This document shows positions 1-50,115 of a DNA stretch of 50,115 bases, in pieces. The notes under the pieces were generated by a model, which worked only from the letters and a program-made list of their open reading frames with translations, was not told the DNA's origin and ran no database searches. The stretch lies in IMG/VR virus record IMGVR_UViG_3300045988_020086, one strand, 5' to 3'. The first letter of the stretch is position 1. Each line of letters starts with the position of its first letter. A program made the position numbers and the translations under genes. The DNA is from a virus.

Positions 1-141
1 ATTTCCGAACGTCCATCTTGTAAGCCAGTTTACCACAGATCGGGGGTGATAGTCAAGCGGATACCCCAGCGGGGCCGCACCGCTCAAAGCGGCCCCGCCC
101 CACTACCCCGGCAGCCCGCCGGGGCAAACCTGAAAAGCAAA
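1..141. repeat. Direct terminal repeat (assembly overlap of a circular or terminally redundant genome)
   Basis: nt 1-141 are identical to 49975-50115, giving a unit length of 49,974 bp. Confidence 0.95.
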
Positions 142-3675: not shown

Positions 3676-3794
3676 CACGAAATCGGACACTCTGGCAGGG
3701 CAAGCACCGTAAAGCAGCCCCGCCCCACTACCCCGGCAGCCGCCGGGAGATCATCCCGAACACCAACCATAACACGAAAAGGAGCTGTCACGAA
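3676..3794 (+). repeat. Early-operon intergenic module, copy 5
   Basis: Near-identical to copy 1 over its 3' half; CACGAAA at 3676, 3773 and 3789. Confidence 0.85.
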
Positions 3795-7839: not shown

Positions 7840-8366
7840 GATGATTCCTTTCCCGCCTGGTCTGCCAGGCGTTTCCACTCCTTGATTTCAGTTTTCGTAT
7901 CGGTGGTGATGATTTCCCGGAACACATAGCCCCGCGGCTCTGCGATCAGGTCAATAAACAGCCTGCGACGGTAGATGTAATCCCTCTGCGCCCGCCGGGT
8001 GAATTTTGACTTAATTTCCACCACTTCCACCGTTCCGTCGGCATATTCCAGCACATAATCCGCCGTATACCTTGCCGCCGGGAGATGAACAGCGCAGAAA
8101 TCCTTTGCGGGCAGCAAAGGAAAGGCAACGTGCGGCGTTGCCTTGATGATCCTGCCGGACTGGATGCCCGGCAGTACCGTGCCAATGTAAAAATCATACT
8201 CGCCCTTGCTCTCGAAGGTTTTCCCGATCTCCCCGGCAGCCTTGGCCGCTGCTTCCAGCGATACCGCCCCTACCGGGGCTTTCCGTGCGCATCGAGCGGC
8301 TATTTGCTTCTCCGCCTGGGCACGATACCGGGGCGGCAGGTCTTCCAGTTCCAGTCTCGCACTCAC
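7779..8366 (-). CDS. DUF1064-like (putative PD-(D/E)XK nuclease / resolvase-like) protein
   Basis: GTG start 6 nt after AGGAGGAA, with a GTGA overlap on the Rep stop. Motif pattern ESKGEYDFY..YTADYVLEY..VEVVEIKS. Confidence 0.65.
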   Translation of the reverse strand: MSARLELEDLPPRYRAQAEKQIAARCARKAPVGAVSLEAAAKAAGEIGKTFESKGEYDFYIGTVLPGIQSGRIIKATPHVAFPLLPAKDFCAVHLPAARYTADYVLEYADGTVEVVEIKSKFTRRAQRDYIYRRRLFIDLIAEPRGYVFREIITTDTKTEIKEWKRLADQAGKESSWAKAEQGCPRTTDRASRTP

Positions 8367-9202
8367 GGCTGATTCCTCCTGTTCTTGTTCTTCGGTGGTT
8401 CCTTGCGGTATAGGCTCACGATCAGGTGACGGGTAGAGTTGCCCGTGATGGTGACTTCGCACCGATGCAGGGTATACCCCGGATACATCCGTTCCCAGTA
8501 CGCCCGGTCTTCCAGACAGTTTTCACACACGTCCTTGAGCTTCGATCGGCTCATTTTGTTGTCGTTCGGCCTGGGCATTTTTGGCGGCTGCAGGCCGTGG
8601 CTCTGCCGCCAGTGCCGTTTGCAGCGGCGGTTCTTCACGATATACCGGGCAAGGCTCTCCACGCTGTTGTGGTCGAAGTGCAGCGGCTCACACCGGGCCA
8701 TTCCCCGGCCATTCCACGCCTGTTCTACCATTTCCCGGGTCAGCCCCGCCGGGTGCGTCATAATGACATGGTGATGGTGCCGCCCCAAAACTTCACCTGT
8801 TACAGGGTCCACAGTGCAATACTCCGTCACCACGACCCACTTTGGACGCTGGATGCCCTGTTTGTCGCAAAGGCGGTACAGCTTCTTGATTGCATTGGAG
8901 AAATCCCGGTCAGCCCGGGCAAGGTCATTTGGGGCAGGGTGATGATCGTCGTCGTAGGTGTATGTAACCGAGAAATCACCGGGCCGGAAGTTCGTATTTA
9001 CCAGCAGAACCAGGTAGCGGCCAGATTTGCGGAGGTTGTAGGCTTCCTTCGCCAGACTGGTGGCGAGTTCTTTCTTCCGCCGGGTGCTGGCCTTATGCTC
9101 TTTCTCGGAGACCTCGAAAAACTCCGCCTGCATGGTTGGCGCAGTGGCATAATCTTTGCCGCAGATGTATTTCTGTTCTCTGACATAAAAGCCGCTGCCC
9201 AT
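8363..9202 (-). CDS. HUH-superfamily rolling-circle replication initiator (Rep_1/pC194-like motif set)
   Basis: ATG lies 10 nt after GGAAGGAGGA. Motif 1 FSVTYTY, motif 2 GRHHHHVIM, motif 3 LARYIVKN (YxxK). Confidence 0.7.
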   Translation of the reverse strand: MGSGFYVREQKYICGKDYATAPTMQAEFFEVSEKEHKASTRRKKELATSLAKEAYNLRKSGRYLVLLVNTNFRPGDFSVTYTYDDDHHPAPNDLARADRDFSNAIKKLYRLCDKQGIQRPKWVVVTEYCTVDPVTGEVLGRHHHHVIMTHPAGLTREMVEQAWNGRGMARCEPLHFDHNSVESLARYIVKNRRCKRHWRQSHGLQPPKMPRPNDNKMSRSKLKDVCENCLEDRAYWERMYPGYTLHRCEVTITGNSTRHLIVSLYRKEPPKNKNRRNQP

Positions 9203-9339
9203 ACCCACTACGTCCTCCTTCCCGTAAACGTCCAATTTGCTGAATAAAGGCCAAGCCGCCAGCCGCCCGGGAACTTTTATGCTTGCCCCCGCCCCCGCTC
9301 CGGCAAGCTCTGCTGTCCGTTACGCCCTACTACCGCGGG

Positions 9340-12211: not shown

Positions 12212-12832
12212 TCAACCTTCCTGCTCGTCTTCATCGTTCCGCACCTGACAGGCAGGTGCGGATATGGGATTTTTGATCTTGGCGACGGGGCGGACACCAG
12301 CCTCACCCGAGGCGTTGTCGTAGGTGCAATCCCCGTTGCCGGTCGCGTGGGCGAAATAGGCTGCCGAGTTCGGCACCCGATTCTGGAGCCAGTACCATTC
12401 CCATCCGCCGTTCAAGCCCTGGGAAGCAATGCGATTCTTCCTCTGCTTCATCGGCTTCCATTGGCTCACGCTTTCGGGTTCATCTTCACCACACGGGTTT
12501 GAGCCGAAGATTTCCTTTTCCGTCGGCAGGCGCAGCAGGTCGCCGTTTTCAAAAGGCAACAACAGCTTCCTGATTTTCTGGGGGAAGCGGTCAAGGATTT
12601 CACCGTTCAGCTTCTTCCGCAGGTCGGAGGCATCCCAGCCGCCCGCATTGGTGTTCTGTGCGTTCATGCTGTATTCCTTTGCCAGGCAGTCCGCAAAACA
12701 GAAGATCATACCGTCGTTTTCTTCCTTGACGGCCAGCATCTCTACCTTTTCACCATCGGACAGCTTAAAGCGAATGACATCGCCTACCCGGAACAGGTCA
12801 ACCTTGATTTTCTCGGTTCTTCTTACTTTCAT
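12212..12832 (-). CDS. Second DGR target protein with a C-type-lectin-fold-like variable C-terminus (206 aa)
   Basis: C-terminus WYWLQNRVPNSAAYFAHATGNGDCTYDNASGEAGVRPVA aligns to the TR-encoded peptide. N-terminal part has W..S.LRKKLN-type motifs seen in Firmicutes DGR targets. No signal peptide. Confidence 0.85.
   Translation of the reverse strand: MKVRRTEKIKVDLFRVGDVIRFKLSDGEKVEMLAVKEENDGMIFCFADCLAKEYSMNAQNTNAGGWDASDLRKKLNGEILDRFPQKIRKLLLPFENGDLLRLPTEKEIFGSNPCGEDEPESVSQWKPMKQRKNRIASQGLNGGWEWYWLQNRVPNSAAYFAHATGNGDCTYDNASGEAGVRPVAKIKNPISAPACQVRNDEDEQEG
12239..12261 (-). promoter_or_regulatory. Hairpin downstream of VR2 (DGR target-recognition element candidate)
   Basis: CCGCACCTG-5 nt-CAGGTGCGG, 19 nt 3' of the GC-rich VR end. 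Confidence 0.6.
12281..12368 (-). repeat. DGR variable repeat 2 (VR2)
   Basis: 88 nt align to TR. All 9 mismatches fall at TR adenines on the coding strand. Confidence 0.9.
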
Positions 12833-20019: not shown

Positions 20020-21310
20020 TGATTTTTTGTGTATTTTAGCGCAACACAAACAGGCCGTCAAGTTTTGCTTCCTTGCAGCCTCTTTCATTCGTTCAGTTTT
20101 ACCAATCCTTTCTTCCCACCCCGCCTTTCCAGCTATGCGCTCGCTCTCTTATATAATGGTTACTTTACTTTTCGTTATGCGGTCAGCCCCAGTTCCCGCA
20201 GGCATTGGCGGAACATGGTCGCCGCACTCTTATACCCGTGAATCTTCCGGGGGTAGTTGTTGATCCAGTTCTCCGTAGCTGCGATTTCTTCCTGGGTCAC
20301 ATTGGCAAAGTTCGTTCCTTTGGGATGACGTCTGCGAATCATGCCATTCACATTCTCATTGCTGCCCCGCTCCCAAGAGGAATACGGGTGGCAGTAGTAC
20401 ACCTTCGTCCGCTGGCCGTCGATCAGGCAGGAACGCTCGATCTCGTCCGCCATTGCGAACTCGGTTCCGTTGTCCACAGTGATGCTCTTATATATAGTGC
20501 CGAACTTCTCTGCGCCAAGCTTCCGTTCTATGGCATCCAGTGCCCGCACGGTCGTTTCCGCACGGCGGTTCGGAACAAGGATGATCTTCTCATTCCTGGT
20601 CTTGCGCTCGGTCAGTACCAGCAATGCCGCGGTGCTTTTCTTTTTGCCGGAGTATACCGTGTCCATTTCCCAGTGTCCAAATTCTTCCCGGCTCTGGATT
20701 TCTTCCGGGCGTTTATCAATGCTTTCTCCTGCCGGCGCACGGGCAGGTTCCTTCTTCTTCACCTTTTTATATTCGTTCTTATGTACGCCATGCCTGGGCA
20801 AAGCTACCTGTGTCAGGTTCAGAAACACGCCTTTCTTGATGTAGCTGTAAATGGTAGGAACGGAGATGTGGGTCTTGAATGTCCGTCCTTCTTCCATTGC
20901 ATAGCCATACACTGCCGCCGGGGAGCAGTCTTTCTCTATAATAGTCTGTTCGATATAAGCTGCCAACTCATGGTCCTTTCCGATTTTAAGGTCCGGTCCT
21001 TTTTCTCGGAGGTTTGCTTGATACCTCTGTTCCGCTATATCTGGGCTGTACGTCGGGATTATCTCCCATGTTTTGCCGTCCAGCCTGTCATAGCTGCCCC
21101 GTTTTAGTTCCCGGTATACCGTCGAAGGATCAACACGCAACTTTTCCGCTATCTCTCGTGTCCTCATTCCTTCCTTTTTCCACTTCTCAATGCGAAGACG
21201 GTCCGTAAAGTTTAGGTGTTTGAACACTCTCACGCCCTGTTCCTCCTTTCAATTCTGGCGTTTCTTTGCATTTCAAGCGTAAAAGATACGATGTGCTGTT
21301 GTCAATATGC
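20020..21310 (-). mobile_element. IS30-family insertion sequence (ends approximate)
   Basis: Single transposase ORF in a lower-GC segment lying between two terminators. Terminal inverted repeats are only tentatively seen (near 20028-20045 and 21285-21300). Confidence 0.6.
20175..21233 (-). CDS. IS30-family transposase
   Basis: N-terminal HTH (REIAEKLRVDPSTVYRELKRG) plus DDE core (WEMDTV...VDNGTEF...NENVNGMIRR). Confidence 0.9.
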   Translation of the reverse strand: MRVFKHLNFTDRLRIEKWKKEGMRTREIAEKLRVDPSTVYRELKRGSYDRLDGKTWEIIPTYSPDIAEQRYQANLREKGPDLKIGKDHELAAYIEQTIIEKDCSPAAVYGYAMEEGRTFKTHISVPTIYSYIKKGVFLNLTQVALPRHGVHKNEYKKVKKKEPARAPAGESIDKRPEEIQSREEFGHWEMDTVYSGKKKSTAALLVLTERKTRNEKIILVPNRRAETTVRALDAIERKLGAEKFGTIYKSITVDNGTEFAMADEIERSCLIDGQRTKVYYCHPYSSWERGSNENVNGMIRRRHPKGTNFANVTQEEIAATENWINNYPRKIHGYKSAATMFRQCLRELGLTA

Positions 21311-21406: not shown

Positions 21407-21481
21407 AGATTGCCCCGCTTTTCCTACATCAATACCCCGCGTGGAACGCAGGGCTTCAGGAAAAGCAGAGCCGTGGTCTTA

Positions 21482-22887: not shown

Positions 22888-23241
22888 TTACATATCCTCC
22901 AGGTCAATATCGCTGTTCATGGCGAGGTAATCAAGCTGTGCCCGTACCCGCATTTTGAACAGTTCATCTTCGGACAGTTCCCGCAGGATGAACCACCACT
23001 TGCCATCCGGGTTATCCTCGGGCGGGGTAATCTGCACAAGCTCCGCGTTGTGCAGGGTGTCCGAGTAGGCGCACCCGGTCATATCGCCGTCACTGGCAGA
23101 AATATGCACCTCCGATAAATTGCCGTCGAAAATATCCGCCGTGATCTCAGTCTCCGACTGGAAGTTATTGCCGCCCAGCGTCAGGTTTTCAATCAGTGTG
23201 CCATCAGCCAGCGCAACCGTCCATGTCCGTGTTTCTTCCAT
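22888..23241 (-). CDS. Hypothetical tail-fiber-associated protein (117 aa)
   Basis: GGAAGGAG RBS. Sits in the position equivalent to XkdW, ahead of XkdX. Confidence 0.55.
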   Translation of the reverse strand: MEETRTWTVALADGTLIENLTLGGNNFQSETEITADIFDGNLSEVHISASDGDMTGCAYSDTLHNAELVQITPPEDNPDGKWWFILRELSEDELFKMRVRAQLDYLAMNSDIDLEDM

Positions 23242-24443
23242 GTTGGCTCCTTCCCGAACAAGTCCTTAAACAAGTTCGTCATATTGTGAATTTGCTTCCT
23301 GCTCATGTACTTGTAATTGGCGCAAATCCATGATTTGTAAGAATTTTCGATTTCCTCATAGGTCATTACTCCGGCATCCATTTTCCGCTTGTACGCTTTG
23401 AGCTTCCGTCGTTCTCTCGTGATGGCTTTTGGGTTGATCTTTCGGATAATCCGCCCATCTTCCTGCAAAGAATAAAGCACTTGCAAGTGGCGATACTGGC
23501 CGGACAATTTACAGATGTGGGTTTTCTTTTCGTTGATGATGATTCCCAACTTTTCTGCCCACTGCCTGACCCCGGCCATTACCTCTTGCAAATGCTCTTT
23601 GCTTTTGTCGATGATGTAGAAATCGTCCGAATATCTTCCATAGCCCTTCACTGCGCACACGATCTTGACGTAGTTATCAATGGGCACCGGGAGAAATATT
23701 CCTGTATTTTGTGAAACTTGGTTGCCTATATCTGCGCCCTTCCGCAGCATTTTCTCGCCCGTCAGGGCGGATGATGGAACGCCAATATTGAGCGTTGAAC
23801 GCACCTTTTCATGGTACATTTTCTCGATTTCCTCATCTGCGAAACGGGAAACATCCAATTCAAAAGTGCGGAATGCCAACCGCAGTTTGTCCATAACATC
23901 CGCCAGTTCTTCCGGGTCTTTGATTTCCCGCGCAAGATACTGGCTGAACTGGGCCAATGCGACTTCATGCACAATGTTGTCGTAGTAGCCGGAGAAGTCC
24001 GAGAATCCGATGTAACCTTCATTCGTGCCCTCCCGCTCATAGTATTTTCGCAGCTGGATTTCAAAGCGATGCCGATGAAACGCAACACCTTTTCCAACCT
24101 GTGAAGACGAATTGTCGTACTGCAAATATTTTTGAAGCAGCGGTGTGAGGTATTCGTCGCAGGTAATGTGGTTCACCGCCTTGTCTGCGGTTGCTGCACT
24201 CGTGATATACCGTGCGTGACCTCTTTCCTTGATGCCAAATTTCAAGCCCGGCTCAGGCTTATATGTGCCGTCCTCCATGGCTTTCTGAATATGCGCAGTT
24301 TCGAGCAGATGATTTATCTCGTATAACTGCGTTTTATATTTGAACATCGACGCTTTCATTGCTTTGGTTCCTGCTTCATGGATATAATTTGCATCTGTGT
24401 ATTTACTCATATTTCCCTGAAATAAACTGTACAATAGCTCCAT
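23193..24443 (-). CDS. DGR reverse transcriptase
   Basis: RT motifs include the DGR-typical IGNQVSQ (I/LGxxxSQ) and YSDD (GRYSDDFYII). Lies immediately 3' of TR. Confidence 0.95.
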   Translation of the reverse strand: MELLYSLFQGNMSKYTDANYIHEAGTKAMKASMFKYKTQLYEINHLLETAHIQKAMEDGTYKPEPGLKFGIKERGHARYITSAATADKAVNHITCDEYLTPLLQKYLQYDNSSSQVGKGVAFHRHRFEIQLRKYYEREGTNEGYIGFSDFSGYYDNIVHEVALAQFSQYLAREIKDPEELADVMDKLRLAFRTFELDVSRFADEEIEKMYHEKVRSTLNIGVPSSALTGEKMLRKGADIGNQVSQNTGIFLPVPIDNYVKIVCAVKGYGRYSDDFYIIDKSKEHLQEVMAGVRQWAEKLGIIINEKKTHICKLSGQYRHLQVLYSLQEDGRIIRKINPKAITRERRKLKAYKRKMDAGVMTYEEIENSYKSWICANYKYMSRKQIHNMTNLFKDLFGKEPTWKKHGHGRLRWLMAH

Positions 24444-43796: not shown

Positions 43797-45638
43797 TTAA
43801 ATTCCTCCCGATCTTCTTCTGCGGTACTGGTGCTGCGGCTTTGCCGGGCGTGGTGCATCCTCGCCCGGGATTTCCAGGCCGGGGGGATTGCTGATTTCCA
43901 GCGCGGCGGTGGCATAGTTTCTGATGTCAAAAGCCTCATTGCGCTTCTGCGCCGGGTCTTTCAGCTCCCACCGTTCCACCTTGCGCCCGCCTTTCCAGCG
44001 GGTCACTTTATGCTCTGCGGTCAGCATCTTGAAATAAGCCTCGTCATAGCCTGCATCCTCTGCCGCCGGGAAGTGGCAGTAGTTCGGACCCTTGATAAGC
44101 ACTTTCAACCGGGCAAGCACCGCATTTTTGCCGGTGTCAACACCCAACACGAAAAGCTCACCGCCGACGCGGTTGTTCTTGGTCGGGTTTCGGATGTAGG
44201 GCACATCCATACCGCCGCGGCCTTTGATTGCCCAAATGTGGCGGTCTTCCCGCTCTTTGCAGAATCGAATGACCTGATCCGGGAAATGTCCGCCGCTGTC
44301 CATACAGGCCGCACGGATGGAAAGCTCTGTGCCATCCCGCTTCTTCCATGTGGTGGAAAGAAAAGCGTCAAGGTCAGCCCATACCTGGCCCCGTTTCAGG
44401 TCGCCGTAAATGCGCTGGTAACGAATGCCCCAGCTTTCCTTGCCGACGCCCCAGCCCACAACTTCCGCCTCGAAACGGTTATCTTGGGTGTCAATGCCGC
44501 AGGTCAGGTAGAGAACGCCGTCGGGCACCTCGGCCTCGTAGAACTCGCGGCGGTCGATCAGGGCGGTGGTTTCTACCGTTTCGCCCGGTTCCTCCCACGG
44601 CAAGCCCAGGTTCGTGTTCACGAAGACCTGCATCTTCTCGTAGTCGCCCCGGGAAGCGTCCAGATCGGCCGCAATGAATTTCTCGACGATCTCATTCCAG
44701 CCGCAGAGCGTTGACCCCATTTTGTTCATGTGGAAGCCCCGGACTTTCCGTTCAGGGTGTGCCGCCACCCACTTGCCGTGGATGCTGTTTTTCTTCCACC
44801 TGAACTCATTATCCAGGCACCCACATTCAGCGCAGCGGTATTGTACGCCGCCCTCCGGCCACTTCTCCTTGTCGAACACCATCCCATCCCACACAAAAGG
44901 CTGGTACTTGCCGCAGTTTGGGCAAGGGATGTTCCATTCCTCTTGTGTGGAAGCGTTGAACTCGTCCAGGATACGGCTGCTGGCTTTGGTGGTCGGGGTG
45001 GAAACCAGCACCGTTTTGTGATCCCAGTAGGTGGTCTGGCGTTCCTCGGCCAGCATGATCGGGTCGCCTTCTTTGCCAGCACTGGCTTTGTAGGCATCTA
45101 CCTCGTCCGCCAGCAGCACCTTGATGGGGCGGCCACGGAGATCGGTCGGCGAGTTTGCGCCGATGATCGTCAGCTGTCCGCCGGGGAAATTTTTCTTGGT
45201 GATAGTGTTGCCGGAGTAGCGGCTTTTGTTGTCCACCAGCCCCCGGAGAATCGGCGTATCCCGGATCATGGTTGCCAGACGGTCTTTTGAAAAGCTCTCG
45301 CCCAGGTTCACGGTTGGCTGCACGATCATAATGGGAGCCGGGTAGTAACTCATGTAGAAGCCGACGGTGTTGAGGATCAGCCCCTCCGTTTTCCCGGCCT
45401 GGGCGCACATCATCGCCACCACCTTGCGGATATGGACATCGCCGATTGCGTCCATGATTTCCCTCTGAAAGGGGGCGTTGTCGGTGTTCCACTGGCCTTT
45501 TGCCGAAGACGCTTCGGCGGACAGGCGGCGGTATTTATCCGCCCACTGGCTCAGTGTCAGGTTCGGGGGCGGTTTCAGCGTTCCCAGGACCCGCTCGAAC
45601 AGCTGCAGCGTCTGCGGTTCCATGTGGATCATCGCCAT
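43797..45638 (-). CDS. terL: Terminase large subunit, GpA family
   Basis: Clear colinearity with lambda gpA: PFQREIMDA, Walker-A-like AQAGKTE, zinc-finger-like CPNCG...CAECG. Confidence 0.92.
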   Translation of the reverse strand: MAMIHMEPQTLQLFERVLGTLKPPPNLTLSQWADKYRRLSAEASSAKGQWNTDNAPFQREIMDAIGDVHIRKVVAMMCAQAGKTEGLILNTVGFYMSYYPAPIMIVQPTVNLGESFSKDRLATMIRDTPILRGLVDNKSRYSGNTITKKNFPGGQLTIIGANSPTDLRGRPIKVLLADEVDAYKASAGKEGDPIMLAEERQTTYWDHKTVLVSTPTTKASSRILDEFNASTQEEWNIPCPNCGKYQPFVWDGMVFDKEKWPEGGVQYRCAECGCLDNEFRWKKNSIHGKWVAAHPERKVRGFHMNKMGSTLCGWNEIVEKFIAADLDASRGDYEKMQVFVNTNLGLPWEEPGETVETTALIDRREFYEAEVPDGVLYLTCGIDTQDNRFEAEVVGWGVGKESWGIRYQRIYGDLKRGQVWADLDAFLSTTWKKRDGTELSIRAACMDSGGHFPDQVIRFCKEREDRHIWAIKGRGGMDVPYIRNPTKNNRVGGELFVLGVDTGKNAVLARLKVLIKGPNYCHFPAAEDAGYDEAYFKMLTAEHKVTRWKGGRKVERWELKDPAQKRNEAFDIRNYATAALEISNPPGLEIPGEDAPRPAKPQHQYRRRRSGGI

Positions 45639-45727: not shown

Positions 45728-46222
45728 TTATTCTTCCTGCTCATCTTCGGCAGCCTCCCCCTCGGGTGCTTGCAGGGCAATATCGGGATCAGACAGTTCC
45801 ACCAGTGCCTCTTGGATGGCCTTGCGTAGGATGTCGCTTGCATCCGCCGGGTCGGTCAGCTGGGCCATGGTGTCCGCATACTTGGTCGGGATGGCTTCCA
45901 GCCTGTCCTTGAAATTTGCAAAGGCGGTCTTCAAGCCGTTCTCGATGTCCTCCGTGCGGTGGAGGTTTCCCTTGGCTTCCTCCATCTTCATCTTCTCGAT
46001 CTTGCCCCGGGTTTCCTCCCGGTCCGCCCGGGCAGCGGCCAACCGGGATTGGTCGTCCTTGGTGCCGCCGGTCTTGTAGGCGACGTACTGCCGCACCACT
46101 GTTTTCAGGTTGAAAATGCCCGGGCGTTCCTCGGTCAGCACGCCTTCATCCCGCAGTTCCCTCACGCGGCGTTCTGTCAGGTTCAGGCAATCCGCGATTC
46201 CCTTAGTCGTGAACAAGGCCAT
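45728..46222 (-). CDS. Nu1-like terminase small subunit (HTH)
   Basis: Start MALFTTKGIADCLNLTERRVRELRDEGVL...; coiled-coil C-terminus. Confidence 0.6.
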   Translation of the reverse strand: MALFTTKGIADCLNLTERRVRELRDEGVLTEERPGIFNLKTVVRQYVAYKTGGTKDDQSRLAAARADREETRGKIEKMKMEEAKGNLHRTEDIENGLKTAFANFKDRLEAIPTKYADTMAQLTDPADASDILRKAIQEALVELSDPDIALQAPEGEAAEDEQEE

Positions 46223-46940
46223 CTTTGTCACCGTCCTCCGGCACTTCGCCCGTTGCTCTGATCCGCAGCAGTTCCAACCGTTGCTTTTCCAGTTCCATGC
46301 GGCGGTCGGATTCCTCCGCTGCCCGTAGCGCACCGGCAACAGCAGCAATGCGCCCCTGGGTCTTGTACAAGGCATCCTGCAATTTCAGAATGCGGGCAAA
46401 GGGAGTATCACGGCTGTACATTCCCATGGTCTGCACATTGCCGTCTTCCTTCTTGCCACCCTTCCCGGTCTTGCCCGGAACACGCATATCCAGTACGCTG
46501 GATGTTATCAGCGTGTCCGGGTCCATGTCCTCGTACTCTTTGATCTTTTCCAGAATCTTCAACTCCCGCAGTTTGAGAAGACCCATCTCATGCTGCAGGG
46601 CTTCCACGCCGTTCCGGGGTGCATCGTCAAAGGCTCCCTGTTCCGCCGGGGTGAGCTTATCAAAGAAGATTCGGGAATAGGCACCGTCCTTCTCGGCGTT
46701 CAGGTTGCCCGCCGGTGCCCCGCCGCCGGAGTTGCCCGCGGCGTTCTGGTTTCCCGGCTGTCCGCCGGGCTTCCTGCCGGTGGGAGTATCCCACCCGTCT
46801 TTCGACTTCCACCGCCGGACAGTATCGTACTTGAGGTGCAGATCATCCGCCAGCTGCCGGAGATTGACTTCGCCGCCCTTTTTCTTCCGGGCCATGTACT
46901 CAGCGCGGGCGGCTTCTCGCTCATCGCTTCGCCTTGCCAT
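46203..46940 (-). CDS. Terminase small-subunit-like protein
   Basis: N-terminal HTH plus GNQNAAGNSGGGAPAGNLNAEKDGAYS, the repeat typical of a TerS family. Confidence 0.7.
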   Translation of the reverse strand: MARRSDEREAARAEYMARKKKGGEVNLRQLADDLHLKYDTVRRWKSKDGWDTPTGRKPGGQPGNQNAAGNSGGGAPAGNLNAEKDGAYSRIFFDKLTPAEQGAFDDAPRNGVEALQHEMGLLKLRELKILEKIKEYEDMDPDTLITSSVLDMRVPGKTGKGGKKEDGNVQTMGMYSRDTPFARILKLQDALYKTQGRIAAVAGALRAAEESDRRMELEKQRLELLRIRATGEVPEDGDKDGLVHD

Positions 46941-46999: not shown

Positions 47000-47043
47000 A
47001 GCATCTATGTGGTGCCGCCGGTCCTGCGGCACACCCGGATATG

Positions 47044-47078
47044 AGAAAAGCCCCTCGGTGCTTCCACCGTGGGGCTTC
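47044..47078 (-). terminator. Terminator-like hairpin 1 in the late-operon leader
   Basis: AAGCCCCACGGTG-GAAG-CACCGAGGGGCTT followed by TTCTCAT. Confidence 0.5.
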
Positions 47079-47099
47079 TTCCATAAATCCACTGTACCA

Positions 47100-47133
47100 A
47101 TTATACCACTAAAAACGTCTCATAGTGTCTCAT
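47100..47133 (-). promoter_or_regulatory. Candidate late promoter (extended -10) with tandem ATGAGAC repeats
   Basis: TGGTATAAT on the - strand (-10 at 47105..47100). ATGAGAC occurs twice, 10 bp apart (47123..47117 and 47133..47127), in place of a -35. Confidence 0.5.
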
Positions 47134-47377: not shown

Positions 47378-48444
47378 TCATTCTGTACAGTCATACAGCA
47401 GCGCACCCATCGCCGCTGTACACAAAACATAGTCGTGATCCACATCGTTCAGGATGTTTATTACCGATACATAGTCGCCATACCCGTTTTCTACTAATTT
47501 ATCCTGTATGGTCTTGGACGCTTCAACTGTTGTCGATACAATATTCTTCCACGCGTTTTTCTGTGCCGCATTTCCCGACTTCGCCAGCGTAGCGCACATT
47601 GCATTGCCATCCGACCAGATATAGATTGTATACCCCGAATCGTCCTTTTCCAGTTGATAGTCAGAGCCAAAACCACGCTCTAAAGCATTTTCAAGCAATG
47701 CGGTCATCTCATTCTCTGAAATTTGATGGGAAGATTCGTTTTCTTCACTTACGGCTGTGTATGGATATTCCAGATAAACATACTGCGCATTTGAATCGTC
47801 TTTTTTTCTGACCAGTTCTCCTGTAAGGCATTCACCCTCAATTCCAACTTCGTTAGATACGCCGTTCCAAAGCTGGTCTTTCATGTCCATTGTGACGGTG
47901 AAAACGTATTCTCCCTGCAATGGCCTGCTTCCATGAAATGCGTCATTGCTTTCTGCTGTTCCATTTTGCACTTTAACCGTTTCGCTTTTCTCAAAGTCAT
48001 TTCCTACTAAGCTAAATCGCAGTGTCGCACCCTCCGGCAAATTGGTATGAACAACAAATATAGGGGCATCGCTTTCTCCATTTGTCTCCACATTCATTTC
48101 CACGGGGAACTGCTTTAGCTTGTACGAAGTGATTTCAACTGGAACATTGCTCTCCCACGCCTGATCCTTTTTATAATTATCCTCGCCGTCAATGGTAATG
48201 CTTTCCACCTTGTCATTTTTAGACAACGAGACCGTTTCAACTTCTTCCGTTGTTATTTCAGTAAAGCCAGCAGTCTGCAATTCAGAGATGGCATCTTCCA
48301 AAGACAGCTTTTTACAATCCGTGCTGCTGAATGGTGCCTTTGCTGGATTTTTCAACCCGCAGCCCACCATAAAGGCACAACAAGCAACTGTGGCGGCAAG
48401 AGCTACGAATCTCTTACCCCCCCCCCGGGTATTTTGAACATCAT
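47378..48444 (-). CDS. Lipoprotein moron with PASTA-like segment, frame broken at a G10 tract as assembled
   Basis: GAAAGGAG-N9-ATGATG start. With G11 the N-terminus would read MMFKIPGGGGKRFVALAATVACCAFMVGC (signal peptide plus lipobox). The region is AT-rich relative to the genome. Confidence 0.7.
48417..48426 (-). repeat. Homopolymer G10 at codons 7-10 of the lipoprotein gene
   Basis: Read directly from the sequence. Confidence 0.95.
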
Positions 48445-48507: not shown

Positions 48508-48791
48508 TGCACATAATCGCCTGTGTTCATCAGGCTTTTTTGTGATTTTTGACCCCCACCCTTATTTTTCGGGCCGGAGGGGGGAAGCCCTTCAAAAAAA
48601 TTGACACCTAGAAAACTTTTGGGGCTTCGGAACCCGCATTCGCCCCGCCCCCGGGGGGCAGTACCTTGCTCATCGGGGCGGCCGCGGTGCCGGAGAGGGC
48701 CGAGGCCGGGCCGGAGAAGGAAGGGGGCAGGGGGGATAGATAAGGCGAGTTCTAGCCCTCTAGGTCTAAGCCCTAAGCCTAAAGCTCTATC

Positions 48792-48819
48792 CCGTTAGGT
48801 GGAGAATCTGACCCCTCCG
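48792..48819. repeat. Left arm of 28-bp inverted repeat
   Basis: CCGTTAGGTGGAGAATCTGACCCCTCCG matches the reverse complement of 49330-49357 at 25 of 28 positions. Confidence 0.8.
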
Positions 48820-49041
48820 GCGTTGGGCTGGCGGCGGGGTGCTGGCGGGATGGCGGCTGGCGTTGTCGGCAGGTCTGGCAGGGGTGCGGGCAGCAGGGCG
48901 GCGGGGTCATCAGGGCGGCGGCGTGGTCCGGCTGGAAGGAGTAGGCCGGGCAGATGATCGGGCGGGCGGTCCGCTGCTCATCGGGTAGGCCGACACCACC
49001 TAGGCCGGGCAGATCGGGCAGGCCGTCACCGTGGGCGGCGC

Positions 49042-49066
49042 GGTCCTTCCCGGTGCTGATCGGGGC
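49042..49066 (+). repeat. Iteron-like direct repeat, copy a
   Basis: GGTCCTTCCCGGTGCTGATCGGGGC is identical to 49176-49200. Shorter TGCT(G/C)ATCG(G/A)GG variants lie near 48667, 48975, 49073 and 49153. Confidence 0.8.
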
Positions 49067-49175
49067 GGCGGCGGTGCTGATCGGGGCGGGCCGTGAGCAG
49101 AAGAAAAGCCAGGGCGGGCGGCGTTGGCCGTTCGCTCTGGCTTTTTCGTTTCTGCTGCTGATCGAGGCAGGGGCG

Positions 49176-49200
49176 GGTCCTTCCCGGTGCTGATCGGGGC
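49176..49200 (+). repeat. Iteron-like direct repeat, copy b
   Basis: Identical 25-mer. Confidence 0.8.
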
Positions 49201-49329
49201 CGGGGCCGTCTGGCACTGGTTCCGGCTGCACCTGATCCACCCGCACGGGGCACCGGGCACGGGTCCCGCTGGCACCGTTCCAGGGCAGCACAGTTTCGCC
49301 GCCGGATGATCCGGCAAAATGCCGCCGGG

Positions 49330-49357
49330 CGAAGGGGTCAGATTCTTCACTTAACGG
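49330..49357. repeat. Right arm of 28-bp inverted repeat
   Basis: See the left-arm entry; the arms are separated by 510 bp of about 70% GC DNA. Confidence 0.8.
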
Positions 49358-49413
49358 CATATCGCCCCATCGGTAACGGTGAACTAGGTTCTATGCCGCC
49401 CTATTATCCCCCC

Positions 49414-49629
49414 TTAGCCCCCTTCTTCCCCGGATTCCGCCGGGGTGAATCCATCACGGGCCATTCTTTCGGCGCAAGCCTGCAAGATATAGGCCTGCAC
49501 ACTCTGTCCAGCCGCCGCCGCTGCTGCCCGGATTTCTCCGCCCCGATCTTTCGAGGGTCGAATCTGGATTGAATCGCATTTTGCAATATATCGGCTATTT
49601 GTGATTTTCTTTTTCTCCGAGATTGGCAT
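49414..49629 (-). CDS. Ribbon-helix-helix (CopG/Arc-like) DNA-binding protein, candidate early-operon repressor
   Basis: IQIRPSKDRGGEIRAAAAAAGQSVQAYILQACAERM fits a beta-alpha-alpha RHH. RBS AGAGGTG. Divergent from the early promoter. Confidence 0.65.
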   Translation of the reverse strand: MPISEKKKITNSRYIAKCDSIQIRPSKDRGGEIRAAAAAAGQSVQAYILQACAERMARDGFTPAESGEEGG

Positions 49630-49671: not shown

Positions 49672-49680
49672 AATTCAGCG

Positions 49681-49776
49681 GCATTCCGCCATGCAAAAAT
49701 CAACAAGCATTCCGTCATGTTTTTGTGCAAAACGTAGAAAGCATTCCGTCATGCTTGACAGTGGCATTCCGTCATG
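49681..49776 (+). promoter_or_regulatory. Four direct operator-like repeats GCATTCCG(C/T)CATG
   Basis: Copies at 49681, 49707, 49741 and 49764. The last two bracket the -35 and fill the spacer of the early promoter. Confidence 0.75.
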
Positions 49777-49783
49777 CTAAGAT
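49755..49783 (+). promoter_or_regulatory. Early promoter
   Basis: TTGACA(49755-49760)-17 nt-TAAGAT(49778-49783). Confidence 0.7.
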
Positions 49784-49851
49784 TAGGCCACAGCAAGCGA
49801 GCCGGACGACAAGCCGGAGCGGTTGCGAGTAAGCCGAAAGGAGTGAACCGC

Positions 49852-49974: not shown

Positions 49975-50115
49975 ATTTCCGAACGTCCATCTTGTAAGCC
50001 AGTTTACCACAGATCGGGGGTGATAGTCAAGCGGATACCCCAGCGGGGCCGCACCGCTCAAAGCGGCCCCGCCCCACTACCCCGGCAGCCCGCCGGGGCA
50101 AACCTGAAAAGCAAA
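49975..50115. repeat. Direct terminal repeat (second copy)
   Basis: Identical to nt 1-141. Confidence 0.95.

What the first reader, a model, noticed from the sequence alone, without database searches (positions are those of the whole stretch)
48792..49357. GC-rich 0.5-kb module bounded by 28-bp inverted repeats and filled with GATC-containing iteron-like repeats
Arms at 48792-48819 and 49330-49357 match at 25 of 28 positions in inverted orientation. They enclose 510 bp that is much more GC-rich than the genome and has no credible gene; the 193-aa track ORF spanning it exactly is Pro/Arg/Gly-rich noise.

Inside the module are:
- an exact 25-bp direct repeat (49042-49066 and 49176-49200)
- at least four shorter TGCT(G/C)ATCG(G/A)GG variants
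- further GATCGGGC strings
- a central imperfect 17-bp palindrome (about 49095-49155)

The module sits between the RHH gene and the lipoprotein moron. It could be an iteron-type origin or plasmid-maintenance locus (no integrase is present), the cos/terminase recognition region, an invertible segment, or a non-autonomous mobile insertion.
Basis: partly seen in the sequence, partly recalled or inferred. Interest (0 to 1): 0.65.

Follow-up and report, generated by a model that had tools for sequence, protein, structure and literature searches.

The report
GC-rich end tract beside phage cos
The inverted-repeat "module" is a real, conserved, non-coding stretch at one end of the packaged chromosome of a gut Faecalibacterium phage, next to the DNA-packaging cut site; it is not a mobile element, a flip-switch or a gene, and its function remains an inference.

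Summary
The arms match 25/28 (32 nt at 88%), the interior is 73% GC, and the 25-bp direct repeat and central hairpin are present.

The window is a circular 49,974-bp temperate Faecalibacterium phage.

About 50 related viral contigs and 4 Faecalibacterium genomes carry the same arrangement. The interior always has the same orientation, and the module is intact inside an integrated prophage. It is therefore not an inverton, a MITE or attP. No reading frame and no RNA fold is conserved.

The arms are the inner ends of a ~100-nt element present twice in inverted orientation. The R copy overlaps the stop codon of the RHH gene. The L copy lies next to cos. FP_Toutatis has only R, and phage Lelie has neither, yet both keep the GC-rich, G-skewed tract.

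Lelie has experimentally typed 5' cohesive ends, and its record starts at the homologue of window 48634. One virome contig starts at the same base. So cos lies about 160 bp left of the module, and the tract (48635-49330) is the right end of the virion DNA.

The hairpin is a bidirectional terminator that ends the RHH transcript. A packaging or DNA-end function is inferred, not shown.

The parts
48621..48634 (-). Predicted cosN region. The left virion end begins at 48634 reading downward (minus strand GGTTCCGAAGCCCC).
   Evidence: The phage Lelie record (PP479942.1) was rearranged by PhageTerm to start at its cos, and Lelie was typed as having 5' overhangs (PMC11792537). It starts at GGTCCGAAAGCCCG, the homologue of this sequence. 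Virome contig IMGVR_UViG_3300001528_000004 starts at exactly the homologous base.
48545..48620 (-). Conserved A-tract-rich block on the terS side of the cut. It is a candidate cosB-like terminase-binding or bending region.
   Evidence: The block is conserved across terS types, while the DNA further left (the moron cargo) is unrelated between close relatives. The role is inferred.
48659..48666 (+). Invariant CAGTACCT, exactly 24 nt from the predicted cut in the lineages read. It is a candidate cosQ-like element.
   Evidence: The same motif sits at the same 24-nt spacing in the window, the L011 type, the L008 type, Toutatis and Lelie. The role is inferred by analogy with lambda cosQ (own knowledge).
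48635..49330 (.). GC-rich (about 70-74%) non-coding tract, G-skewed on the + strand.
   Evidence: Composition is nearly the same in all lineages (A .11-.14, C .25-.30, G .40-.46, T .14-.18) although the sequences do not align. The tract is present in Toutatis and Lelie, and in further contigs with Toutatis-type terS where an AT-richer spacer separates it from cos. Within the window's lineage it is 95.7-98.1% identical, against 81-94% at terS third codon positions.
48720..48819 (+). L copy of the ~100-nt element. The left arm is 48788-48819. It is an inverted duplicate of the RHH 3' end plus its flank, and lies 85-185 nt from the predicted cos end.
   Evidence: Alignments of L and R copies from more than 100 distinct sequences. 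The L copy is absent in Toutatis-type contigs (L001, L015, L048) and in Lelie.
49330..49432 (-). R copy of the element. The right arm is 49330-49361. It overlaps the last codons (GEEGG) and the stop codon of the RHH gene.
   Evidence: 85.6% identical to FP_Toutatis over 49330-49432. It is the junction at which different RHH/operator alleles are swapped between close relatives. The AGAATCTGACCCCTCCGGC core is nearly invariant across the 18 diverse copies aligned (one or two variable positions near its 3' end, including the window's own R copy, CCCCTTCGCC). The R copy of two contigs departs further.
49103..49146 (.). Bidirectional intrinsic terminator. It ends the RHH transcript on the minus strand and any inward + strand transcript.
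   Evidence: The terminator scan finds a 20-bp stem followed by a T run. RNA folding gives -46.3 kcal/mol (z -8.0) on the + strand and -32.3 (z -4.6) on the - strand, each followed by a U tract. A hairpin with an upstream A run (a minus-strand U tract) is seen in four of the five other module types read. L033 has lost it through a deletion.
49042..49075 (+). Direct repeat copy 1 (GGTCCTTCCCGGTGCTGATCGGGGC...).
   Evidence: family D1. In L033, a deletion whose end-points lie at these repeats removes the hairpin.
49176..49209 (+). Direct repeat copy 2.
   Evidence: family D1: 91% over 34 nt, exact over 25.
48779..49360 (-). 193-aa open frame. It is not a gene.
   Evidence: There is no PHROG hit. 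Several long open frames exist on both strands in every lineage, and their boundaries shift with indels. All six frames give the same weak low-complexity similarity between lineages. The frame also runs through the terminator hairpin.
49414..49629 (-). RHH gene whose 3' end and 3' flank form the R element.
   Evidence: phrog_13890. Weak NikA-like and MobA-like hits fall below the curated cut-offs. Homologues sit next to the tract in nearly every locus that extends that far.

Best explanation
Identity. The module is the inner part of a conserved non-coding 'end tract' of a lambda-like cos phage.

Shown or inferred by homology:
- The genome is cut for packaging at about 48634/48635. This rests on homology to phage Lelie, whose ends were typed experimentally.
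- Packaging then runs leftward through a lipoprotein moron, a late promoter and terS/TerL.
- The 0.7-kb GC-rich, strand-skewed tract 48635-49330 is therefore the last DNA to enter the capsid. By analogy with lambda it would be the first to leave it.

Contents of the tract:
1. The 3' flank of the RHH gene (the R element).
2. A bidirectional intrinsic terminator that ends the RHH transcript before it reaches cos.
3. An inverted second copy of the RHH 3' element (L) close to cos.

The two 28-32-bp 'arms' are simply the best-conserved inner tips of these two copies.

Function (inferred, not shown). The tract acts at the DNA level as a cos-accessory or end zone. It keeps transcription away from the packaging site. 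It also provides sequence that terminase, or a host or phage DNA-binding factor, uses when the terminal cos is approached, or when the leading end enters the cell.

The L/R elements are optional protein-binding islands within the tract. They also serve as the homologous junction where RHH immunity alleles are exchanged.
For: Phage type and ends:
- TerL is GpA-type, with both the ATPase and nuclease domains.
- The Toutatis-like phage Lelie packages with 5' cohesive ends, and its record starts at cos (PMC11792537).
- That start aligns to window 48634, and one virome contig starts at the same base.
- CAGTACCT sits exactly 24 nt from the cut in the lineages read.

Conservation:
- The tract lies between RHH and cos in every lineage examined, with nearly identical base composition and the same skew sign.
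- It evolves more slowly than terS third codon positions.
- The region 48545-49432 stays constant while the left cargo and the RHH/operator alleles are swapped.

Terminator.

Alternatives tested:
- The module is intact and in the same orientation inside a 241-kb F. prausnitzii chromosomal contig.
- There is no coding frame, no Rfam family and no compensatory base pair in 18 diverse element copies.
Against: - The physical ends of this particular phage were not measured. The cos position rests on homology plus one contig end.
- No protein is shown to bind the tract or the L/R elements.
- Lambda itself has no comparable 0.7-kb tract, so the packaging or end role is an analogy.
- L is missing in Toutatis, and both L and R are missing in Lelie. 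L033 lacks the hairpin. None of these parts is therefore indispensable.
- Tract types are only loosely linked to terS types. L044 combines a type-B terS with the window-type tract, and L003 and L008 share about 140 nt of near-identical interior sequence just inside the left arm across terS types.
- Many assemblies break inside the module. This is explained by the inverted repeat and the high GC content, and it says nothing about termini.
Confidence: 0.55

Rival explanations
1. RNA-level regulation. R is a functional 3'-UTR element of the RHH mRNA. L is the same element in a convergent + strand transcript. Both run into the shared bidirectional terminator. The elements could act as processing, stability or antitermination signals, or could pair with each other in a read-through RNA.
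For: R starts within the last RHH codons and lies 180-250 nt upstream of a terminator. The hairpin in the window terminates both strands, and its three G-U pairs make it stronger on the + strand. The two copies face the terminator symmetrically.
Against: RNAalifold on 18 diverse copies gives -8.5 kcal/mol, and 0 of 14 pairs show a compensatory change. Single-sequence folds differ from one another. L and R in one genome do not co-vary to keep complementarity beyond a shared core of about 17-19 nt. No promoter-like site lies upstream of L. There is no Rfam hit. In Lelie the RHH gene is followed directly by its own terminator, with no R element.
Confidence: 0.15
2. Replication origin for the adjacent divergent operon. 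That operon holds a protein that PHROGs calls a primase. Short repeats would act as iterons, and L/R as a pair of single-strand initiation sites on opposite strands, as in IncQ oriV (ssiA/ssiB; own knowledge).
For: Oriented short repeats are present. An inverted pair of conserved elements is present. The neighbouring operon contains phrog_19458, annotated 'primase', and Toutatis annotates the homologue as primase.
Against: The repeat motif is absent from other lineages: ATCGGG occurs 0 times in L011 and L092. No AT-rich unwinding element lies inside the tract. Toutatis has one element and Lelie none. The 'primase' has no Pfam, NCBIfam or PDB sequence match, even when searched as a profile. The HUH Rep-like gene is at 8363-9235, about 40 kb away along the window.
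Confidence: 0.1
3. No dedicated function. The tract would be a by-product of recombination at the cos end and at module junctions. This could be biased gene conversion or repeated illegitimate duplication, with L being a tolerated inverted duplication of the RHH 3' end.
For: Mosaic break-points sit at the cos motif and at R. Indels lie at direct repeats. L, R and the hairpin are each dispensable in some lineage. Sequence does not align between lineages.
Against: Within a lineage the tract is better conserved than synonymous sites of terS. A 72% GC non-coding tract runs against the usual AT-directed mutation bias (own knowledge). It persists at 350-950 bp in compact phage genomes of every lineage seen. 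The core of L and R is nearly invariant across phages whose TerS proteins are only 45-65% identical.
Confidence: 0.12
4. Invertible DNA switch (inverton). A recombinase flips the 510-bp interior between the arms.
For: Inverted repeats of 28-32 bp flank about 0.5 kb, which is the typical geometry.
Against: The interior has the same G-skew orientation relative to the flanks in all 38 two-armed contigs measured and all 4 genome loci, including an integrated prophage. No recombinase gene lies near the module. The only integrase-like gene is 28 kb away. Toutatis keeps the tract with one arm only.
Confidence: 0.02
5. Mobile or recombination site: a MITE-like insertion, or the ends/attP used by the IS30-family integrase.
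For: Terminal inverted repeats are present, and the genome encodes an IS30-family enzyme, which acts on inverted repeats (PMC5883640).
Against: The element occurs only at this locus in the window. In 185,579 species-representative genomes, only 4 stretches match, all in Faecalibacterium and all with the same two-arm plus cos-motif arrangement. In the 241-kb chromosomal contig L098 the module is contiguous, so it is not split by integration. The right arm is present alone in Toutatis, which uses a serine recombinase.
Confidence: 0.02

Closest known systems
Phage lambda cos region (cosQ-cosN-cosB), cut by gpNu1/gpA terminase
   Same: The large terminase is GpA-type. A close relative of Toutatis (Lelie) has 5' cohesive ends. 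The site lies upstream of terS. The cut site is partly symmetric. A short invariant motif sits a fixed 24 nt on the right-end side, as cosQ does in lambda, and an A-tract-rich block sits on the terS side, as cosB does (lambda features from own knowledge).
   Different: Lambda has no 0.4-0.9-kb GC-rich, strand-skewed non-coding tract on the right-end side, and no inverted pair of ~100-nt elements there. In the window a moron and the late promoter lie between cos and terS.
IncQ (RSF1010) oriV, with iterons, a GC-rich stretch and ssiA/ssiB on opposite strands
   Same: Short direct repeats, GC-rich DNA and two inverted copies of a conserved element lie near a gene annotated as primase. The resemblance is recalled from memory.
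   Different: The repeats are not conserved between lineages. There is no AT-rich region. The elements are optional. The 'primase' has no detectable relation to any solved primase by sequence.
Invertons (for example fimS, the Mu G and P1 C segments, gut Bacteroides invertible promoters)
   Same: Inverted repeats of about 30 bp bracket about 0.5 kb.
   Different: Only one orientation is seen in all 38 two-armed contigs measured and the 4 genome loci. No invertase gene lies nearby. The repeats are part of a longer duplicated gene end.
Conserved linker sequences at module boundaries of mosaic temperate phages
   Same: The R element and the cos motif are the points at which RHH/operator alleles and moron cargo are exchanged between otherwise near-identical genomes.
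   Different: Here the linker is about 100 nt, is duplicated in inverted orientation, and is embedded in a compositionally extreme tract.

Membership tests
Lambda-type cos region | Encoded GpA-family large terminase | tested here: met
   PF05876 at 4e-75 and PF20454 at 8e-86 on 43797-45638(-).
Lambda-type cos region | Physical genome termini (cohesive ends) map to the site | tested here: inconclusive
   This was not measurable for the window itself. The Lelie record starts at the homologous base, and Lelie was typed as 5' cos by PhageTerm. One of about 100 related contigs starts exactly there.
   The predicted cut is at 48634/48635, about 160 bp outside the left arm.
Inverton (invertible DNA switch) | Both orientations of the segment occur | tested here: not met
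   The skew sign of the interior is the same in all 38 two-armed contigs measured and all 4 genome loci. Read-level data are not available.
Inverton (invertible DNA switch) | A site-specific recombinase is encoded nearby | tested here: not met
   The neighbours are RHH, the lipoprotein and terS. The only integrase-like gene is 28 kb away.
MITE / non-autonomous transposon | Several dispersed copies, with presence/absence polymorphism at precise ends and a target-site duplication | tested here: not met
   Only the two arms are found in the window. All 4 genome hits show the same two-arm plus cos-motif arrangement. Toutatis has R alone. No duplication is seen at the decaying outer ends.
attP / transposase end pair | The site is split by integration into the host chromosome | tested here: not met
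   The module is contiguous within the 241-kb F. prausnitzii contig L098.
Iteron-type replication origin | Regularly spaced iterons conserved with their initiator, plus an AT-rich unwinding element | tested here: not met
   The motif is absent from other lineages. The only periodicity is 3 nt, from GGC runs. The tract is 70-74% GC throughout.
Intrinsic (Rho-independent) terminator (hairpin 49103-49146 only) | A stable GC-rich stem followed by a U tract | tested here: met
   on both strands. Termination itself was not assayed.
Structured non-coding RNA | Match to a described family, or covariation supporting a fold | tested here: not met
   No Rfam match in the module at E up to 10, other than noise. 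0 of 14 predicted pairs show a compensatory change.
Protein-coding gene | One frame conserved across relatives and better preserved than the DNA | tested here: not met

The most novel reading that the evidence does not exclude
The GC-rich, G-skewed tract and its optional L/R islands could be a previously undescribed cis-acting 'chromosome-end' element of cos phages of gut Firmicutes. A host or virion factor would read it to control the last step of packaging, or to protect or anchor the first DNA that enters the cell. Alternatively, it could be a primase-specific initiation region for the adjacent ribozyme-rich operon.
Probability: 0.18. Interest if true: 0.65.

Novelty: new variant of a known kind. 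Interest (0 to 1): 0.4.

Why it matters
Toutatis-like and related Faecalibacterium phages are common in human gut viromes.

Placing their cos site gives correct genome starts for hundreds of metagenomic contigs. It also explains why assemblies of these phages so often break at this spot.

The tract shows selection on a non-coding region of up to about 0.9 kb whose sequence differs between lineages but whose composition does not. If it proves to act in packaging termination or at the leading DNA end, it would add a new accessory part to the lambda-type cos paradigm. If it does nothing, it is a clear example of how recombination junctions shape phage mosaics.

Tried and rejected
- Rfam at gathering threshold and at E up to 10: nothing in the module.
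- Coding: no PHROG hit; six-frame comparison between lineages shows no preferred frame.
- RNA fold of the L/R element: single folds are inconsistent and the alignment shows no covariation.
- Promoter inside L/R: none found by the scan. By eye, only a weak -10-like GAGAAT with no -35.
- G-quadruplex enrichment: 0-1 motif per tract, no more than in shuffles.
- Helical or 21-nt periodicity: only a 3-nt signal from GGC runs.
- Dam/GATC or P1-pac-like hexamer idea: GATC and ATCGGG are lineage-specific.
- Chi-like anti-exonuclease array: rejected on orientation. The G-rich strand is the 5'-ended strand at the predicted right terminus, whereas a Chi site must lie on the 3'-ended strand (own knowledge of RecBCD/AddAB). 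The Faecalibacterium Chi sequence is unknown.
- Similarity to the experimentally placed cos of FP_Lagaffe: not above shuffles. An earlier by-eye match was dropped.
- Contig ends as evidence of termini: most ends fall inside the interior, or 40-120 nt beyond cos at the edge of the inverted repeat. These are assembly breaks.
- Link to the IS30-type integrase: rejected, because the module is intact in a prophage.
- The 'primase' as a RepB'-like enzyme: no PDB, Pfam or NCBIfam match.
- L002 as a test of linkage to RHH versus cos: it is a deletion or chimeric contig that joins the tract to the lysis module, so it is uninformative.
- Literature: the two Faecalibacterium phage papers read and one hotspot preprint do not describe the tract.

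Full report
**1. The observation**

The sequence is as described.
- The arms 48792-48819 and 49330-49357 pair at 25 of 28 positions. The repeat finder extends them to 32 nt at 88% (48788-48819 / 49330-49361).
- In 200 shuffles that keep the composition of the GC-rich core and of the flanks, no 28-mer inverted repeat reached 25 matches.
- The interior is 73% GC with GC skew +0.20 on the + strand. Most of the genome is about 50-60% GC.
- The exact 25-bp direct repeat is present, as are five copies of GCTGATCGGGGC with at most one mismatch and a 20-bp hairpin at 49103-49146.

Three details need correcting.
- The GC-rich zone starts near 48635, outside the left arm.
- Weaker inverted similarity runs on to about 48720 and 49432.
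- The genome does encode an integrase-like protein (see section 2).

**2. The genome**

- The first and last 141 bases of the window are identical, so this is a circular assembly of 49,974 bp.
- The large terminase is of the lambda GpA type.
- The minus strand carries terS (46203-46940), TerL, head and tail genes, a reverse transcriptase (23193-24443), a holin, and an HTH_38+rve protein (20175-21233). The last is 52% identical to the IS30-family integrase of Faecalibacterium phage FP_Lagaffe (PMC5883640).
- The only phage record that matched the module region at DNA level in the first search was FP_Toutatis. The match is 85.6% over window 49330-49432, which is the right arm plus the following 75 nt.

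**3. The arms belong to a ~100-nt element present twice**

An exact-pattern scan for the arm found 91 viral-contig stretches. With up to 5 mismatches allowed, most loci that reach far enough have two copies. They always lie in the same convergent order and are 348-705 bp apart.

Alignment of 112 distinct copies shows an element of about 100-130 nt. It has nearly invariant blocks (the AGAATCTGACCCCTCCGGC core and G-run blocks) around a variable centre.

- The R copy overlaps the last codons (GEEGG) and the stop codon of the RHH gene 49414-49629(-).
- The L copy even retains a degenerate image of those codons.
- L is therefore an old inverted duplication of the RHH 3' end and its flank.
- FP_Toutatis-type contigs have only R. 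Phage Lelie has neither.

**4. What it is not**

*Not invertible.* The interior has the same skew sign relative to the flanks in all 38 two-armed viral contigs measured and in all 4 Faecalibacterium genome loci.

*Not attP or a transposon.* In the 241-kb F. prausnitzii APC923/61-1 contig the module is contiguous within an integrated prophage. The element occurs nowhere else in the window. It occurs in only four of the species-representative genomes scanned, each time with the same two arms and cos motif.

*Not coding.* Long open frames occur on both strands and shift with indels. All six frames give the same low-complexity similarity between lineages, and there is no PHROG hit.

*No known RNA and no supported fold.* Rfam finds nothing in the module. 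An RNAalifold consensus of 18 diverse copies is weak (-8.5 kcal/mol) and has no compensatory pair.

*Not an iteron array.* The TNATCGGG-type repeat is frequent in the window lineage and in Lelie, but absent in the L011 and L092 lineages.

**5. Where it sits: next to cos**

A search with the Toutatis region found phage Lelie (PP479942.1). Its record ends and starts inside the homologous region. Lelie was induced, sequenced from particles and typed by PhageTerm as having cohesive ends with 5' overhangs. Its record was rearranged to start at the cos site (PMC11792537).

- Lelie position 1 (GGTCCGAAAGCCCGAAAATTTTCTAGG) aligns with the window's minus strand GGTTCCGAAGCCCCAAAAGTTTTCTAGG. This puts the corresponding end at window 48634.
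- Virome contig IMGVR_UViG_3300001528_000004 starts at exactly the homologous base.
- CAGTACCT lies exactly 24 nt to the right of the cut in the window, the L011 type, the L008 type, Toutatis and Lelie.
- To the left of the cut is an A-tract-rich block of about 90 nt, conserved across terS types.
- Left of that block the DNA is unrelated between close relatives. This is moron cargo, in the window a lipoprotein gene.

Packaging therefore proceeds leftward towards terS. This step is an inference by homology, not a measurement on this phage.

**6. The tract as a unit**

Every lineage examined has, between the RHH gene and cos, 350-950 bp of non-coding DNA with almost the same base composition (A .11-.14, C .25-.30, G .40-.46, T .14-.18 on the window's + strand) and the same skew sign. 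The sequences themselves do not align between lineages. The lineages include the window type, the L011/L003/L008 types, Toutatis and Lelie. Further contigs with Toutatis-type terS also keep the tract, but with an AT-richer spacer between it and cos.

Within the window's lineage the tract is 95.7-98.1% identical. The third codon positions of terS are 81-94% identical in the same pairs. The tract is therefore constrained, or was homogenised recently.

The stretch 48545-49432 stays constant while the cargo to its left and the RHH/operator alleles to its right are exchanged. Break-points fall at the cos motif and at the R element.

Tract type follows terS type only loosely.

**7. The hairpin**

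- It folds at -46.3 kcal/mol (z -8.0) on the + strand and at -32.3 kcal/mol (z -4.6) on the minus strand. A U tract follows on each strand.
- In four of the five other module types read, a hairpin with an upstream A run (a minus-strand U tract) sits at the equivalent place.
- It is therefore at least the terminator of the RHH transcript.
- In Lelie the RHH gene has its own terminator directly after the stop codon.
- L033 has lost the hairpin through a deletion whose end-points lie at the 25-bp direct repeats.

By eye, a TATAAT (47105-47100, minus strand) followed by a hairpin with a U tract (47075-47041) lies between the moron and terS. The same layout occurs upstream of terS in Toutatis and Lelie, and Toutatis has an annotated Q antiterminator. 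If this is the late promoter, late transcription would start left of cos and would not need the tract. This was not tested further.

**8. Most likely mechanism, and how sure**

The anatomy is firm, at about 0.85. It is a conserved, non-coding, right-terminal tract that abuts cos. It contains the RHH 3' element, a terminator and an inverted duplicate of that element.

The function is inferred, at about 0.35. I favour a DNA-level, cos-associated role. The tract would stop transcription before the packaging site. It would also supply sequence or physical properties, plus optional protein-binding islands (L/R), used when terminase approaches the terminal cos or when this end leads the genome into the cell.

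The reasons for favouring this reading:
- The tract has a fixed position and polarity relative to cos.
- Composition rather than sequence is conserved between lineages.
- Sequence is constrained within a lineage.
- No coding or RNA signal is present.

The rivals are an RNA-level 3'-UTR or convergent-transcript role, an origin for the neighbouring operon, and a by-product of recombination. They are listed with their tests in the rival explanations. A Chi-like array was considered and set aside because the G-rich strand has the wrong polarity at the predicted end.

**9. Comparison and novelty**

The closest known system is the lambda cos region. Terminase type, position and end type agree. However, the module does not contain the cut site, and lambda has nothing like this tract or the inverted element pair.

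The papers on Faecalibacterium phages that I could read do not mention the tract. I rate it a new variant of a known kind. It is of moderate interest, is useful for annotating a common group of gut phages, and is testable with simple deletions and end mapping.

Noticed in passing
window 57-109 (= 50031-50083), 510-560, 1671-1723, 1964-2016, 2638-2687, 3683-3734, + strand: Six distinct RAGATH-5 RNA hits (63-72 bits, gathering score 50) lie on the + strand within the GC-rich divergent operon, mostly between its long + strand ORFs. That operon starts opposite the RHH gene. The seventh hit is the assembly overlap.
   Followed up: no
window 21409-21474, - strand: A DUF3800-VIII RNA motif (67.6 bits) lies between the holin gene and the IS30-family integrase gene.
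   Followed up: no
window 20175-21233, - strand: An IS30-family (HTH_38 + rve) protein is 52% identical to the FP_Lagaffe integrase, so the phage is probably temperate. No clear IS-type inverted repeats flank the gene.
   Followed up: partly
window 48417-48444, - strand (lipoprotein moron): The likely true start, ATGATG behind AAAGGAG, is followed by a C3G10 homopolymer. The lipoprotein signal peptide is in frame only with G11. Relatives carry G7, G10, G11 or G12, and C2 or C3. This could be phase variation or homopolymer assembly noise.
   Followed up: partly
window 49680-49790: Four copies of GCATTCCGYCATG overlap a TTGACA-17-TAAGAT promoter between the RHH gene and the divergent operon. Relatives have different repeats at the same place together with different RHH alleles (CGGTACAGGG in Toutatis, AACCGTCTACGG in L028, GCACGTGGACGTG in L088). 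This looks like an immunity-type operator/repressor pair.
   Followed up: partly
window 47041-47105, - strand: A TATAAT is followed about 25 nt later by a hairpin with a U tract, between the moron and terS. The same layout occurs upstream of terS in Toutatis and Lelie, and Toutatis has an annotated Q antiterminator. This is possibly a Q-type late promoter with its terminator. Seen by eye only.
   Followed up: no
window 1-141 and 49975-50115: An exact 141-nt terminal overlap shows that the window is a circular assembly of 49,974 bp.
   Followed up: yes
window 23193-24443 and 12212-12832, - strand: A reverse transcriptase (RVT_1) and a DUF6273 protein are present. DUF6273 is the domain reported as a DGR target in related Faecalibacterium phages. 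A diversity-generating retroelement is therefore likely.
   Followed up: no
window 8363-9235, - strand: A weak but above-threshold match to the rolling-circle Rep domain REP_ORF2-G2P.
   Followed up: no
L102 1900-2130 (Lelie), L210 2270-2460, L219 2230-2440: Lelie-type tracts lack L and R. They carry 2-3 direct copies of an AT-richer island, CCCTACATAGCTATATAGGAGAGGG, inside the C-rich tract. These may be counterparts of the L/R centres.
   Followed up: no
L002 5700-9100: In this contig the RHH gene, the R element, the terminator and about 420 nt of tract are joined directly to endolysin, hemolysin-like and IS30-type transposase genes. This is a deletion of the whole structural region or a chimeric assembly.
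   Followed up: partly
L174 1-50: A viral contig in the public collection begins with an Illumina adapter sequence.
   Followed up: no
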